From the NCBI GenBank assembly GCA_008297795.1, contig VBQP01000012.1:1-31369 (forward strand): a stretch of 31,369 bases of DNA. Direction: 5' to 3'. A model generated the notes under the pieces. That model searched no databases. It was not told the origin of the DNA and worked only from the letters and a program-made list of their open reading frames with translations. The position numbers and the translations under genes are program-made. The DNA comes from Thermoplasmata archaeon. GTDB taxonomy: Archaea > Thermoplasmatota > E2 > UBA202 > DSCA01. Below, one piece after another: positions 6,793 through 22,609 of the stretch (its first letter is position 1; the number at the start of each line of letters is the position of its first letter).

Positions 6793-6873
6793 GGGCCCGT
6801 AGCTTAGCCAGGTGGAGCGTCTGGCTCATAACCAGATGGTCGCCGGTTCGAATCCGGCCGGGCGCCGGGCCCA
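6793..6873 (+). tRNA. tRNA-Ile2 (CAU, agmatidine-modified type) with a 7-nt duplication in the 3' acceptor strand
   Basis: GGGCCCG acceptor 5' strand, D-arm GCTT/GAGC, anticodon stem TCTGG/CCAGA with CAT at 6827-6829, T-arm GCCGG-TTCGAAT-CCGGC, then CGGGCGC CGGGCCC A. The GGGCCCG...A73 pattern matches archaeal Ile2 rather than Met. Confidence 0.85.
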
Positions 6874-13067: not shown

Positions 13068-13107
13068 TCCAAAACAATAAAATATGGTGATGCATTCCCC
13101 TATTTAT

Positions 13108-13213
13108 GGCCCGGGTGGTGTAGCGGTAACATAAGGGACTGTGGATCCCTTGTCTCGGGTTCAAAAGAGAATATGCAGGGAGTTGCATTCTCATGAAAAT
13201 CCCGGCCCGGGCC
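13108..13213 (+). tRNA. tRNA-His(GUG) with genomically encoded G-1 and a 34-nt intron at 59/60 (13166-13199)
   Basis: G-1 + GCCCGGG / CCCGGGC + C73; anticodon stem AGGGA/TCCCT with GTG at 13141-13143. The T-loop is interrupted; removing 13166-13199 restores TTCAAAT. Confidence 0.92.
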
Positions 13214-13461
13214 CTCCATCATTTTTCACTCTAAAAATTTCAAAAGGGGCGGGGGGAGAGGCGGCATTTAAACCACCTGGAGTAGAGAGCTAATCTTGTC
13301 CTCCCCCCAGTTTGCTATCTTTTTGCTATCATAATGATAATATTCTGGCAATATATAAAACTATCGATTTTTTTCTGTATTCTCATTCACTTTTCAGATA
13401 GCATTCTCATCAAAAAAAATATAAAGTTTATTATATCATTTAAGCAATATTTACACACAAA

Positions 13462-15543
13462 ATGACCGATTTCATATATCTCGTGCCATCACTGGTGGCT
13501 GCAATATCACTTCCATCAGTTGCTTTTTATTTACTTACAAAAAAACCGAGGAGGATTTATGTTACAGTACTCTCCGCATTCTGCCTCGATCTGTTTTTGT
13601 GGAATATAAGTATTGCCCTGATAAATATACTTGGCGTGGAGAATCCCTATTCGGTAGTAATAGCAAAAATAGGTTCGGCAGGACTCATACTCGTTGCACC
13701 CATCATATTTCATTTTATAGTGGCATATACTGGATATATAAAGACCAAATTGTGGTACCCTCTCGTGTACGGTCCTGCATTTTTCCTCCTTCTCTCATTA
13801 TTCACAGATTATTATGTCAAAGGAGTTACCGTCAAGGGCTTCGGAGTAGAACCTGTCTATGGTCCACTTCTGCAGGCAAATGATTTGATTGCACTGATAA
13901 TCATAATATTTTCCACTCTTCTCATATTCAGATATTATAGAGAAAGTGCCGGCATAAAAAAATATCAGAGTTTGTATGTTTTTATTGCAGTGCCACTCTC
14001 CAGCATTCTTTCCTTTATAAGTTACGAGATTCTGAGTGTTTCCATGAACACGTCGCAGTTTCCCGTTGGCTCGAGCATAGATGTGGGAGTGGCTTATATT
14101 CTTGTGTACGCAATATTGAAATTCAAATTGCCGGTCGAGACGGCTGCAGAGGTGGACTTCCGCATTCTTGCAGAAACAGCGAGCGAGGGAATCTGCATCA
14201 TCGATAATTCGGGCAATATAGATTATGCCAATTCTCACTTCTCTGAAATGGTGGGTGTACCAAATAAAAATATTGTGGGCGAGGAGTTCAGGAAATTCGT
14301 GCCCCGCGAATATCATGCCGAACTCAGAAAAACCATCCGCAGAACGATGAAGGGGGAAAAGTTAGCCAATGTGGATATGGAACTGAAAGGCAGGGGGGGA
14401 AACCTGAGTGTTGAGATAAATACGTCTCCAATTATAGTGAATGATAAAATCATAGGGGCTTTTGTGACCATAAGGGACGTTACCGAAAGGAAGAAAACGC
14501 AGGAGGAGTTGAACAGACAGAAAGTGTATTTCCAGGCACTTTTTGAAAGTTCACCTGAAGCAATTGTCTCTCTCGATAAAAACCATAATGTTCTCGATAT
14601 TAATTCTTCATTTATAAAATTATTCGGATACACTCTCGATGAGGTTAAAGGCAAAAACATAGATGATTTCATACTGCCTCCCGAAAAAGAAAAGGAAGGA
14701 AGAGATATAACAAAAAAAGTCATAAGCGGAAATACGTTTGCCACCGAAACTGTCAGAAGGAGGAAGGATGGTTCTCTCGTTCCTGTTTCCCTGCTTGGCG
14801 CGCCGATATTCGTGAACGGCGAACAGGTTGGAATTTTTGGCATTTACCGCGATATCACCTCGCAGAAGGAGGCGGAGGAGGAGAAGGAATTTTACAACTC
14901 TCTTCTGCGCCATGATGTTGCCAACAGAAACATGGTCGTTCAGGGTAATCTCGAAATTCTTGAGAGTTCTAATCTTGAGGAGGAACAGAAAAATCTTGTT
15001 TCCAATGCGCTGAATGCTGCAAAGGCAAGTACGGACCTCATTAACAAAATAAGGGAGTTGAGGGCCGTGGAGGGAGATGAAGCACAACTCAAACCTGTGG
15101 CTGTGGACGAAAGCATATCGAGGGCAATAAAAACAAACATGCAGCAGGCAGAAAATTTCGGCGTTAAAATAAATTATAGGAAAAGTGGTGCAGTAATCAG
15201 GGCTGGCTCTCTGGTGGACAACATATTTTCAAATCTGATACAGAACGCGATTATACACTCAAATTGTAAAAATATAAACATATATTGCGACAGAGAAAGA
15301 AAATACGGAAAGGAATTCTGTAAATTGTCGATAGAGGATGACGGCAAAGGAATACCTGACGAGTTGAAAAATGATATATTCAAACCAGGCATAAAAAGAA
15401 GGGGAAGCCCCGGAAGCGGTCTCGGTCTCTATCTTGTTAAAAAACTCGTTGAGAAATACGGGGGATGGATGGAAATACGGGACAGAATAGAAAACGGCGA
15501 GAAAAAAGGCACCATATTCAATATCTATCTGGAGATGGCTTGA
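13462..15543 (+). CDS. Membrane sensor histidine kinase (7TM N-terminus, two PAS domains, HisKA, HATPase)
   Basis: About 7 TM segments; two PAS repeats (ETASEGICIID..., FESSPEAIVSLD...); H-box LLRHDVAN; N-box NLIQNAIIHS; G1 DDGKGIP; G2 GSGLGLYLV. Confidence 0.93.
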   Translation: MTDFIYLVPSLVAAISLPSVAFYLLTKKPRRIYVTVLSAFCLDLFLWNISIALINILGVENPYSVVIAKIGSAGLILVAPIIFHFIVAYTGYIKTKLWYPLVYGPAFFLLLSLFTDYYVKGVTVKGFGVEPVYGPLLQANDLIALIIIIFSTLLIFRYYRESAGIKKYQSLYVFIAVPLSSILSFISYEILSVSMNTSQFPVGSSIDVGVAYILVYAILKFKLPVETAAEVDFRILAETASEGICIIDNSGNIDYANSHFSEMVGVPNKNIVGEEFRKFVPREYHAELRKTIRRTMKGEKLANVDMELKGRGGNLSVEINTSPIIVNDKIIGAFVTIRDVTERKKTQEELNRQKVYFQALFESSPEAIVSLDKNHNVLDINSSFIKLFGYTLDEVKGKNIDDFILPPEKEKEGRDITKKVISGNTFATETVRRRKDGSLVPVSLLGAPIFVNGEQVGIFGIYRDITSQKEAEEEKEFYNSLLRHDVANRNMVVQGNLEILESSNLEEEQKNLVSNALNAAKASTDLINKIRELRAVEGDEAQLKPVAVDESISRAIKTNMQQAENFGVKINYRKSGAVIRAGSLVDNIFSNLIQNAIIHSNCKNINIYCDRERKYGKEFCKLSIEDDGKGIPDELKNDIFKPGIKRRGSPGSGLGLYLVKKLVEKYGGWMEIRDRIENGEKKGTIFNIYLEMA

Positions 15544-16831
15544 ACCTTTTCAGGGGTTTGGATAGATGCCTTCTTGCCACAACGTCCACCTCATAAAATC
15601 CTGGCTTTATGCCCCTCTCCACCTTCTCAAAGGTCGCATCCTCCTCTTTTGCAGTTGTACCGCATTTTATGCATCTGTAACCCTTCCCCTTTCCAACTGA
15701 TTTCATATGTTTGCCGCATTTCGTGCATATGGGATTTTCCTTCTTTTTATAAACTTCTGCGAGAGAATGTATTTCTATCTTTTCTATGTTAATCGTGCGG
15801 GGTTTATCTCTAACGCCGCCATATACTGTCACTCTGTCCCCTTTTCGAAGTCTTCTCACCAGGTTTCTGAAGCTCTTGGTCGGCTCATAGGCAGCACATT
15901 CTATCTCATTTCCATCGCAAAGAGAGAAAATGACATGCCCTCCCTCTATCGTCCTTGGTTCTCTGCATACCTCACCTGTAACAATCACAGATTCATATGC
16001 CACCACTTCCCCTATTTTCCTTCTATTGAGGTGTTCATCTGTTGCCTGGTTTGTTTCGAAAATCATCCATCTTTTTATTTTTCCTGAAACAACGTATTCC
16101 ATAGCTTCTCTCAATTCTTGGTAATCATCTCCTCTTATACCATACATCACCGGGCAGGGAGAATTTGGCATTATCTGGACATGGCGGTTTATGTAATCAT
16201 AATTATCAAATGTTTTTTTGAATTTTCTATCCATTCTCTTGACAGATTCTTCATCAACCCACCTCTCCCCACCATTACGGTAAGTTATTATCTCATATGT
16301 TCTGTCGCGGGGGCGCCATGATACTGCTGCCGAGGCTCCTATCAGTCCCCTCCCATTTTTGTACGGTATGTATAGCGCACCCATTTCATCAAGAACGTTC
16401 TTGATATCATTTATCTCCACAACGCTCCTCACTGCCTTTCTGTATAGCGAATAAGGGGGCTTTTTTTCTATGACAACAAGCCCGGGGTTTGTCTGCTCGC
16501 TTTCCATCATTGCCCTTTTTCGCACAATTTTATCAATTCTTTCAAGCACTTTTTCAGGTTCTGTCTTGCCGTCAGATATCTTTTTCTCATAGCAATATCT
16601 TTTTCCTTCAACATATCCAATCTCCGTCCTCCGCCCTCCCCCCCTGCCAAACTGGATTGCAATCGCCCCGTTTCCTCTTGTTTTCCACGGGATGTTTGGG
16701 TTGAGGCGGACAAGGCGCGGCATGCCTATTATGTCCATTCCGTCTTCATTCAGGGCTTTTATTATATCGCATGCAAGATGCGTGGTGCACATGCCTTCTC
16801 TCGAGTCGGTATCGTCTATTCCAAGCCACAC
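15518..16831 (-). CDS. tiaS: tRNA(Ile2) 2-agmatinylcytidine synthase
   Basis: GIDDTDSREGMCTT, LVRLNPNIPWKTRGNGA, HGRGLIG-like NGRGLIGASAA, TNQATDEHL, OB fold (CAAYEPT), C-terminal Zn ribbon CTKC..CIKC and RHLSKPL. Confidence 0.96.
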   Translation of the reverse strand: MWLGIDDTDSREGMCTTHLACDIIKALNEDGMDIIGMPRLVRLNPNIPWKTRGNGAIAIQFGRGGGRRTEIGYVEGKRYCYEKKISDGKTEPEKVLERIDKIVRKRAMMESEQTNPGLVVIEKKPPYSLYRKAVRSVVEINDIKNVLDEMGALYIPYKNGRGLIGASAAVSWRPRDRTYEIITYRNGGERWVDEESVKRMDRKFKKTFDNYDYINRHVQIMPNSPCPVMYGIRGDDYQELREAMEYVVSGKIKRWMIFETNQATDEHLNRRKIGEVVAYESVIVTGEVCREPRTIEGGHVIFSLCDGNEIECAAYEPTKSFRNLVRRLRKGDRVTVYGGVRDKPRTINIEKIEIHSLAEVYKKKENPICTKCGKHMKSVGKGKGYRCIKCGTTAKEEDATFEKVERGIKPGFYEVDVVARRHLSKPLKRFKPSPDRY

Positions 16832-22490: not shown

Positions 22491-22609
22491 TGCGGGCGCC
22501 GGGATTTCCGAGCATGCAGCGAGGAAATATGCCTTGCTCGCAGGGCATGCATTCGAACCCGGGCAGTGAGCTTGGAAGGCTCAAATCCTAACCGCTAGAT
22601 CACGCCCGC
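22491..22609 (-). tRNA. tRNA-Gly(UCC) with a 47-nt intron at 59/60 (22505-22551)
   Basis: Minus strand: GCGGGCG/CGCCCGC + A73; TGAGC-CTTCCAA-GCTCA; CCGGG-TTCGAA|intron|T-CCCGG. Splicing restores TTCGAAT. Confidence 0.92.

What the first reader, a model, noticed from the sequence alone, without database searches (positions are those of the whole stretch)
13108..13213. tRNA-His with a non-canonical T-loop intron (59/60)
Seen: TTCA (13160-13163) pairs with TGAA (13194-13197); 3-nt bulge AAT (13198-13200); AAA (13164-13166) faces a single A (13193); intron hairpin GAGA..ATGCA/TGCAT-TCTC. Cutting after the second base of each bulge removes 13166-13199 and yields TTCAAAT exactly. Established: non-37/38 introns are typical of Thermoproteales and some DPANN lineages and uncommon in euryarchaeotes. 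Standard annotators may miss this gene.
Basis: partly seen in the sequence, partly recalled or inferred. Interest (0 to 1): 0.7.

Follow-up and report, generated by a model that had tools for sequence, protein, structure and literature searches.

The report
tRNA-His gene with T-loop intron
This is a real histidine tRNA gene of an uncultured Thermoplasmatota archaeon, interrupted in its T-loop by a 34-base archaeal-type intron. The kind of intron is known, but it is unexpected in a lineage whose splicing enzyme is of the type thought to serve only standard intron sites.

Summary
Window 13108-13213 (+) encodes tRNA-His(GUG), with G-1 and C73, split by a 34-nt intron (13166-13199) at position 59/60.

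- **Structure:** the MFE fold gives the T stem, a 4-bp helix UUCA/UGAA, a 3' bulge AAU, and a 5' AAA facing one A, followed by an intron hairpin.
- **Detection:** ARAGORN finds nothing in the precursor. After in-silico excision it calls a 72-nt tRNA-His.
- **Orthologues:** related genomes carry an intron of unrelated sequence at the same site (23 distinct versions), or no intron at all. The intronless genes read GGGTTCAAATCCCG and are 66-69/72 identical to the predicted spliced product.
- **Copy number:** no other tRNA-His was found in this 70%-complete genome.
- **Enzymes:** RtcB is present. EndA was not assembled here, but all four same-genus genomes have a single alpha'2-type EndA without a CSL/ASL-size insert.
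- **Context:** the genome has at least three T-loop introns, and near-complete relatives have at least eight.

The scan had already noted the sibling tRNA-Gly T-loop intron in this window (22491-22609).

**Verdict:** a new member of a known kind (59/60 BHB intron). Interest is moderate because of the lineage and enzyme context. No RNA-level proof is available.

The parts
13076..13085 (+). A/T-rich box AATAAAATAT centred about 27 nt upstream of G-1; candidate archaeal TATA box (inferred only)
   Evidence: Read from the sequence. Position fits the usual archaeal promoter spacing. Not tested.
13108..13108 (+). Genome-encoded G-1 of tRNA-His, pairs with C73 (13213)
   Evidence: column 1/124 is G-C in 19 of 19 orthologues.
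13109..13165 (+). 5' exon, tRNA positions 1-59 (acceptor 13109-13115, D arm, anticodon arm, T-stem 5' strand 13155-13159, T-loop 54-59)
13141..13143 (+). Anticodon GTG (His)
13160..13163 (+). 5' strand of central 4-bp helix H (T-loop nt 54-57, UUCA)
   Evidence: Pairs with 13194-13197 in the MFE fold and in the RNAalifold consensus of 19 orthologues.
13164..13166 (+). 5' splice-site bulge AAA (nt 58, 59 and first intron base); cut predicted after 13165
   Evidence: Geometry is the same as in the canonical 37/38 introns of genus g8.
13166..13199 (+). Intron, 34 nt, at tRNA position 59/60
   Evidence: Excision restores a tRNA-His recognised by ARAGORN and 66-69/72 identical to intronless orthologues.
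13167..13192 (+). Intron hairpin h' (GAGA/UCUC plus AUGCA(G)/(U)UGCAU)
13193..13193 (+). Single unpaired A opposite the 5' bulge, which makes it a 3x1 internal loop
13194..13197 (+). 3' strand of helix H (UGAA), intron-encoded
   Evidence: U-A 19, U-A 16 / U-G 3, C-G 19, A-U 19.
13198..13200 (+). 3' splice-site bulge AAU; cut predicted after 13199
   Evidence: AAU in all 23 distinct intron-bearing tRNA-His genes.
13200..13213 (+). 3' exon: U60, T-stem 3' strand 13201-13205, acceptor 3' strand 13206-13212, discriminator C73; no encoded CCA
13222..13226 (+). T5 run 9 nt after C73; likely archaeal oligo-T terminator (inferred)
   Evidence: Read from the sequence. Not tested.

Best explanation
Window 13108-13213 is the functional, and probably only, tRNA-His(GUG) gene of an uncultured Thermoplasmatota archaeon. 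A 34-nt archaeal bulge-helix-bulge intron is inserted between T-loop nucleotides 59 and 60. In the precursor, T-loop nt 54-57 (UUCA) pair with the intron's UGAA instead of forming the T-loop. This gives the order T stem (h), 4-bp helix (H), intron hairpin (h'), with a 3-nt bulge on each strand. The 5' bulge faces one extra A. The splicing endonuclease (alpha'2 homodimer type in all four same-genus genomes) cuts after the second base of each bulge. RtcB then joins the exons to give T-loop UUCAAAU and circularises the intron. CCA is added afterwards. What is shown: the sequence, fold, product, orthologue pattern and enzyme genes. What is inferred: that cutting and ligation actually occur, the order of processing steps, and that an alpha'2 enzyme without a specificity loop is enough.
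For: 1. The MFE fold reproduces the motif, z = -3.0.
2. In-silico excision turns an ARAGORN-negative sequence into a regular 72-nt tRNA-His(gtg).
3. 39 of 41 relatives have an orthologous gene. 23 distinct versions carry an intron at exactly this site, 18-49 nt long, with unrelated hairpin sequences. H is 4 bp in all 19 Thermoplasmatota versions, and the 3' bulge is always AAU.
4. Eight or more orthologues in the same order are intronless and read GGGTTCAAATCCCG, 66-69/72 identical to the predicted product.
5. Only one tRNA with anticodon GTG was found in this genome. The other ARAGORN 'His(atg)' call has no Rfam support. In relatives, BLAST found one tRNA-His locus per genome, and the secondary hits I fetched lack a GUG anticodon loop.
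6. RtcB is present in this genome at 594 bits.
7. EndA is present in 36 of 41 relatives as one ORF of about 320-360 aa with two N and two C domains. It aligns over its full length to A. fulgidus alpha'2 EndA.
8. The H. volcanii splicing endonuclease cuts BHB motifs in rRNA precursors and in a 5' UTR, so a BHB is recognised outside the anticodon loop (PMC7714728).
Against: There is no RNA-level evidence (no tRNA-seq or circular-intron reads). EndA was not found in this 70%-complete assembly. The 5' splice site is a 3x1 internal loop rather than a clean 3-nt bulge. The reviews read state that alpha4/alpha'2 enzymes need the strict motif (PMC3239211, PMC5829648). The 30% of the genome that is missing could hold another tRNA-His.
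Confidence: 0.92

Rival explanations
1. The intron is real and spliced, but a standard narrow-specificity alpha'2 enzyme is not enough. On this view the EndA of this order has broadened its specificity by some means other than the known CSL/ASL insert, or it uses a helper factor, which lets T-loop introns with imperfect 5' bulges spread.
For: Most T-loop introns of tRNA-His in the order have a 3x1, 4x1 or 4x2 loop at the 5' site rather than a clean bulge. Near-complete relatives carry at least eight T-loop introns each. The generic pattern gives 81 hits against 7 control in family f1 and 186 against 41 in f2 (my hand sums of the per-genome counts). The literature links such loads to (alpha-beta)2 or epsilon2 enzymes (PMC3239211, PMC5829648).
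Against: Both bulges and the 4-bp helix are always present, so these are not HBh'/BHL motifs. The catalytic repeat aligns almost without gaps to M. jannaschii alpha. It spans 155 aa against 167 aa of A. pernix alpha, so no insert is visible. Tolerance of AFU-type enzymes for a 3x1 loop has not been tested either way.
Confidence: 0.2
2. The gene is a tRNA-His pseudogene disrupted by an insertion, and the working copy lies in the unassembled part of the genome.
For: The genome is only 70% complete. EndA was not found in it.
Against: The same interrupted arrangement is the only tRNA-His locus found in 17 further genomes of the order, 11 of them at least 90% complete. The exons are conserved and the acceptor and T stems show compensatory changes. 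The splice motif is kept while the hairpin sequence turns over completely.
Confidence: 0.04
3. The pairing is a chance hairpin, or the locus is an assembly chimera next to a truncated tRNA.
For: The Rfam hit is only partial, 31 bits.
Against: The 3' exon completes the T stem, the acceptor stem and the G-1:C73 pair exactly. Independent MAGs from different studies show the same architecture. The reversed-pattern control gave 0 hits in 197 genomes.
Confidence: 0.01

Closest known systems
59/60 T-loop introns of Candidatus Micrarchaeum acidiphilum ARMAN-2 (pre-tRNA-Cys(GCA), pre-tRNA-Pro(GGG); PMC3239211)
   Same: Same insertion point (59/60) and same BHB-type splice structure built from T-loop nucleotides plus intron. 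Removal is by the archaeal splicing endonuclease, shown in vitro for tRNA-Cys. My scan also found tRNA-His genes with a 59/60 intron in Micrarchaeota and Parvarchaeota MAGs (L047, L057, L062, L070).
   Different: ARMAN-2 uses a three-unit epsilon2 EndA with the ASL loop, and its tRNA-Cys intron is an hBH/BHL motif lacking one bulge. Here the host is Thermoplasmatota, the enzyme in the genus is alpha'2 without such an insert, and both bulges are present.
Non-canonical tRNA introns of Thermoproteales and their proposed transposition (cited in PMC3239211 and PMC4090602; Marck & Grosjean 2003 as cited in PMC6379350)
   Same: BHB introns outside 37/38, several per genome. Related intron sequences occur in tRNAs of different identity. 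In this order the 'CTGCAACTTGC' intron family is shared by tRNA-His, tRNA-Ser(CGA) and tRNA-Gly(CCC), with z about 12 against shuffles.
   Different: Those lineages have (alpha-beta)2 EndA with the CSL loop, and the introns sit at many positions. Here the non-canonical introns I looked for and verified are all at 59/60. The intron of this particular gene shows no significant similarity to any other (best z 3.4).
Canonical 37/38 BHB intron of archaeal tRNAs
   Same: Identical local geometry: stem, 4-bp helix made of loop nt 1-4 plus intron, bulges cut after their second base, and the intron after the sixth loop nucleotide. Genus g8 of the same order carries such a 37/38 intron in its tRNA-His.
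   Different: This one sits in the T-loop, not the anticodon loop. It therefore blocks formation of the T-loop and the D/T elbow in the precursor.

Membership tests
tRNA-His | Anticodon GUG in a 7-nt loop on a 5-bp stem | tested here: met
   CTGTGGA loop at 13139-13145.
tRNA-His | Extra G-1 paired with C73 | tested here: met
   G 13108 pairs with C 13213; G-C in 19 of 19 orthologues.
tRNA-His | Regular cloverleaf after intron removal | tested here: met
   ARAGORN calls a 72-nt tRNA-His(gtg) on the in-silico spliced sequence and nothing on the precursor.
Archaeal BHB tRNA intron (hBHBh') | 4-bp central helix H | tested here: met
   13160-13163 with 13194-13197; kept in 19 of 19 Thermoplasmatota orthologues.
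Archaeal BHB tRNA intron (hBHBh') | 3-nt bulge at the 3' splice site between H and the exon helix h | tested here: met
   AAU 13198-13200 next to the T stem; invariant in 23 versions.
Archaeal BHB tRNA intron (hBHBh') | Clean 3-nt bulge at the 5' splice site between H and h' (strict form) | tested here: not met
   AAA 13164-13166 faces A 13193, giving a 3x1 internal loop. One relative, G007, is clearly strict. This gene is therefore a mildly relaxed hBHBh', not the strict form.
Archaeal BHB tRNA intron (hBHBh') | Outer helices h (exon-exon) and h' (intron) of at least 2 bp | tested here: met
   T stem of 4-5 bp; h' GAGA/UCUC plus a 5-6 bp inner stem.
Archaeal BHB tRNA intron (hBHBh') | Excision at the bulges gives a product equal to uninterrupted homologues | tested here: met
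   66-69/72 identical to intronless orthologues, with an identical junction GGGTTCAAATCCCG.
Archaeal BHB tRNA intron (hBHBh') | Splicing endonuclease and RtcB ligase encoded by the organism | tested here: inconclusive
   RtcB found in this genome. EndA not found in the 70%-complete assembly, but present in 4 of 4 same-genus and 36 of 41 related genomes.
Archaeal BHB tRNA intron (hBHBh') | Spliced tRNA and circular intron detected in RNA | not testable with these tools
   No transcriptome data are accessible.
Relaxed HBh'/hBH (BHL) introns that need (alpha-beta)2 or epsilon2 EndA | One of the two bulges missing or replaced by a loop | tested here: not met
   Both bulge regions are present, so it is not filed here.
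alpha'2 splicing endonuclease (enzyme of the genus) | One polypeptide with two tandem N+C repeats, catalytic Tyr/His/Lys in the C-terminal repeat, no CSL/ASL insert | tested here: met
   G003 EndA is 343 aa with 2x PF02778 and 2x PF01974. It aligns over its full length to A. fulgidus 1R0V/2GJW, E 8e-27. The catalytic repeat aligns almost without gaps to 1A79, and spans 155 aa against 167 aa of A. pernix alpha. Tested on same-genus genomes, not on the window's own genome.

The most novel reading that the evidence does not exclude
This gene may be one copy of a spreading population of 59/60 T-loop introns. These introns occupy at least eight tRNA genes per genome in one order of Thermoplasmatota whose only splicing endonuclease is an alpha'2 homodimer without the CSL/ASL specificity loop. 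If so, the accepted rule that EndA architecture dictates where tRNA introns can live is incomplete. Either alpha'2 enzymes tolerate imperfect 5' bulges anywhere in a tRNA, or this order has evolved a new way to broaden specificity.
Probability: 0.35. Interest if true: 0.65.

Novelty: new member of a known kind. Interest (0 to 1): 0.45.

Why it matters
**Annotation.** A tRNA-His that ARAGORN and the Rfam model miss would make this genome, and many related MAGs, look as if they lack an essential tRNA.

**Biology.** Reviews state that archaea with alpha4 or alpha'2 endonucleases have few tRNA introns, at 37/38 only (PMC4090602, PMC3239211, PMC5829648). In this genome 10 of 22 detected tRNAs are interrupted, three of them in the T-loop. 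Relatives carry eight or more T-loop introns each, and the genus has an alpha'2 enzyme. That makes the coevolution rule directly testable with one enzyme and one transcript.

**Evolution.** tRNA-His in this order occurs with a T-loop intron, with an anticodon-loop intron, or with none. This offers a compact system for studying intron gain, loss and turnover.

Tried and rejected
1. ARAGORN, with and without -i, on the window and the whole genome misses the gene. Its 'tRNA-His(atg)' at the end of contig C50 has no Rfam support and I rejected it.
2. My first two home-made cloverleaf scans were too loose or too slow. The stricter version gave a clean list.
3. Own-genome search for EndA (PF01974) found nothing, so the enzyme type had to be read from same-genus genomes.
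4. The genome contigs pattern scan returned 28 loci, of which 7 were false positives: intronless tRNA-His genes followed by a chance RAAATCY. I tightened the pattern for the class scan.
5. Secondary BLAST hits in G001, G002, G004, G007 and G040 are other tRNAs, not second tRNA-His genes. No tRNA-His was found in G001 or G002.
6. Sequence similarity of this intron to the other T-loop introns, including those of tRNA-Gly and tRNA-Lys in the same genome and tRNA-His of the same genus, is not significant (best z 3.4; z 0.7 for the Gly intron). I do not claim that this copy arose by transposition, although other introns of the order clearly form cross-tRNA families.
I repeated it from files.
8. Literature searches for Thermoplasmata or Thermoplasmatota with non-canonical tRNA introns found no paper describing this.
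9. tRNAscan-SE and SPLITS are not available here.

Full report
**Observation**

- G-1 is at 13108 and the acceptor 5' strand at 13109-13115.
- The D arm, and an anticodon arm with loop CTGTGGA (anticodon GTG at 13141-13143), follow.
- The T-stem 5' strand is 13155-13159 and TTCAAA is 13160-13165.
- Then come 34 nt (13166-13199), followed by T 13200, the T-stem 3' strand 13201-13205, the acceptor 3' strand 13206-13212 and C73 at 13213.

RNAfold on the 106 nt gives the proposed structure as the minimum-energy fold: the T stem, UUCA/UGAA, a 3-nt AAU bulge on the 3' strand, AAA facing a single A, GAGA/UCUC and an inner hairpin. The energy is -44.2 kcal/mol, z = -3.0, and 0 of 200 shuffles are as stable.

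ARAGORN finds nothing here. The Rfam tRNA model gives only a 31-bit partial alignment that mis-pairs the acceptor stem. After deleting 13166-13199 in a script, ARAGORN reports a regular 72-nt tRNA-His(gtg). Four excision windows, starting at 13163 to 13166, give the same product because of the A runs. The 59/60 label therefore follows from the bulge geometry, not from sequence alone.

**Comparative evidence**

A BLAST of the locus against 40 related genomes found an orthologue in 39 of 41 genomes, counting this one. Reading the loci gave three findings.
- Many genomes carry an intron at exactly the same site. There are 23 distinct intron-bearing tRNA-His sequences, with introns of 18-49 nt.
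- Eight or more orthologues in the same order have no intron and read GGGTTCAAATCCCG. They are 66-69/72 identical to the predicted spliced product of this window.
- Genus g8 of the same order instead has a canonical 37/38 intron in tRNA-His.

In all 19 Thermoplasmatota versions the intron supplies UGAA or UGGA to pair with UUCA, and the 3' bulge is AAU. The hairpin h' uses unrelated sequences such as GAGA/UCUC, UCGC/GCGA, GCAAC/GUUGC and GGGC/GCCC. RNAalifold on 19 precursors recovers the acceptor stem (including G-1:C73), the D, anticodon and T stems and the H helix, with compensatory changes in five pairs. A splice structure that is kept while the sequence turns over, together with intronless orthologues equal to the product, is strong evidence for a functional intron.

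**Is it the only tRNA-His?**

A strict cloverleaf scan of the whole 788-kb assembly (70% complete) found one GTG tRNA, this one. ARAGORN's 'His(atg)' at a contig end has no Rfam support. In relatives, the additional weak BLAST hits I fetched are other tRNAs. A pattern for the interrupted gene hits once per genome in 18 of 197 genomes of the class. All 18 lie in this order (f1 8/12, f2 9/25, other families 0/158), and the reversed-pattern control gives 0 hits.

**Host and machinery**

They tie other relatives to Thermoplasmatota/Thermoplasmata MAGs, including JdFR-43. Neighbouring genes fit an archaeon of this kind: UbiA, a FilR1-type regulator, a PAS histidine kinase and TiaS.

RtcB is encoded in this genome at 594 bits. 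EndA was not found in the incomplete assembly. In relatives, 36 of 41 genomes, including all four of the same genus, have one ORF of about 320-360 aa with two endonuclease C domains. The G003 protein (343 aa) has two N and two C domains. It aligns over its full length to A. fulgidus alpha'2 EndA (1R0V/2GJW, E 8e-27). Its catalytic repeat aligns almost without gaps to M. jannaschii alpha, and spans 155 residues against 167 of A. pernix alpha. There is no insert at the place where the CSL was engineered into AFU EndA (3P1Y). By sequence, the enzyme of the genus is therefore a standard alpha'2 type.

**Genome context**

This genome has 22 detectable tRNAs.
- Three have T-loop introns: His; Gly(UCC) at window 22491-22609, minus strand; and Lys(UUU) on contig C23.
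- Seven have anticodon-loop introns.

A generic T-loop-intron pattern gives 5-12 hits per genome in five near-complete relatives, against 0-2 for the control. Fetching the hits of two of these genomes showed proper cloverleaves with 59/60 introns in at least eight different tRNAs each, some also with an anticodon-loop intron. Summed by hand from the per-genome counts of the class scan, hits against control are 81 to 7 in f1 and 186 to 41 in f2. Most other families are about equal to their control.

Introns of different tRNAs can be clearly related. For example, tRNA-His of G037 against tRNA-Ser(CGA) of G004 gives z = 12.5, with 0 of 300 shuffles as high. The intron of this window has no significant similarity to any other, not even to the tRNA-His introns of its own genus.

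**Mechanism**

Shown here:
- the precursor can fold into h-B-H-B-h';
- cutting after the second base of each bulge gives the orthologous mature sequence;
- the same geometry, applied to the g8 genes, gives 37/38.

Established for the enzyme family:
- EndA cuts both bulges and leaves a 2',3'-cyclic phosphate and a 5'-OH;
- RtcB joins the exons and circularises the intron;
- the H. volcanii splicing endonuclease cuts BHB motifs outside tRNA anticodon loops, in rRNA precursors and in a 5' UTR (PMC7714728).

Inferred:
- an alpha'2 enzyme accepts the 3x1 loop at the 5' site;
- because nt 54-57 are sequestered in the precursor, T-loop modification and elbow formation must follow splicing.

**Comparison and novelty**

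59/60 is a known insertion site. ARMAN-2 tRNA-Cys and tRNA-Pro have it, and their epsilon2 enzyme cuts it in vitro (PMC3239211). T-loop BHB introns are mentioned in reviews (PMC6379350). This gene is therefore a new member of a known kind.

What is unusual is the host. The reviews state that alpha4/alpha'2 lineages have under 10% interrupted tRNA genes, at 37/38 only (PMC4090602), and that only (alpha-beta)2 and epsilon2 enzymes handle non-canonical introns (PMC5829648). I found no paper in the held library that describes T-loop introns in Thermoplasmatota. An earlier follow-up of this scan on the tRNA-Gly of the same window reached a similar reading. I re-derived the enzyme type, the multi-tRNA spread and the cross-tRNA intron families independently.

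**Verdict**

This is a real tRNA-His gene with a 59/60 intron (confidence 0.92). Interest is moderate (0.45). No RNA-level proof is available.

Noticed in passing
window 22491-22609 (-): tRNA-Gly(UCC) with a 47-nt T-loop intron at 59/60. H is UUCG/CGGA, the 3' bulge is AAU, and a 3x1 loop sits at the 5' site as in tRNA-His. Already noted by the scan (e1-5296143).
   Followed up: partly
own genome contig C23:11046-11149 (-), outside the window (locus L077): tRNA-Lys(UUU) with a 31-nt T-loop intron. The Rfam tRNA model scores it 54 bits with a 32-nt insertion in the T-loop. Orthologous introns occur in G004 and G007 (z about 15).
   Followed up: partly
L027, L029, L030, L086, L087 (genus g8 of the same order): In these genomes tRNA-His carries a canonical 37/38 intron of about 20-40 nt instead of the T-loop intron. 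One g8 genome (L019) is intronless. tRNA-His in this order therefore has three intron states.
   Followed up: partly
L091-L110 (G004 same genus; G007 same family): At least eight tRNAs per genome have 59/60 introns: His, CAU, Ala-CGC, Ala-GGC, Arg-UCU, Glu-CUC, Ser-CGA and Lys-UUU in G004; Gly-CCC, Ala-CGC, Ala-GGC, Lys-UUU, Lys-CUU, Asp-GUC, Arg-UCG and His in G007. Glu-CUC, Gly-CCC and Asp-GUC also have an anticodon-loop intron.
   Followed up: partly
L008/L014 (tRNA-His of family f2) versus L100 and L103: An intron family beginning CTGCAACTTGC is shared by tRNA-His, tRNA-Ser(CGA) and tRNA-Gly(CCC) across genera (z 11-12 against shuffles). This suggests intron movement or conversion between T-loops.
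   Followed up: partly
own genome contig C52:22004-22144 (-) (locus L076): tRNA-Trp(CCA) has a 69-nt anticodon-loop intron with a weak C/D-box sRNA match (Rfam sR3, 23.9 bits, below the 41-bit gathering score). This resembles the known guide-RNA intron of euryarchaeal tRNA-Trp.
   Followed up: no
L047, L057, L062, L070 (Parvarchaeota/Micrarchaeota MAGs); L053, L069 (other Thermoplasmata MAGs): tRNA-His genes with a 59/60 intron also occur in DPANN lineages and in other Thermoplasmata lineages, with different exon sequences. These are probably independent acquisitions at the same site.
   Followed up: no
class scan, genus g60 of family f4 (e.g. G141, G149, G150): The generic T-loop-intron pattern is enriched over its control (15 vs 3, 10 vs 0, 9 vs 0) in this genus outside the window's order. 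T-loop introns may therefore exist there in tRNAs other than His.
   Followed up: no
window 15518-16831 (-) and 6793-6866 (+): A full-length TiaS (agmatidine synthetase; TCKD, FLD, OB and Zn-ribbon domains) lies 2 kb from tRNA-His. A tRNA(CAU) lies at 6793-6866 and scores 58 bits with a G2:G71-type mismatch flagged by the model.
   Followed up: no
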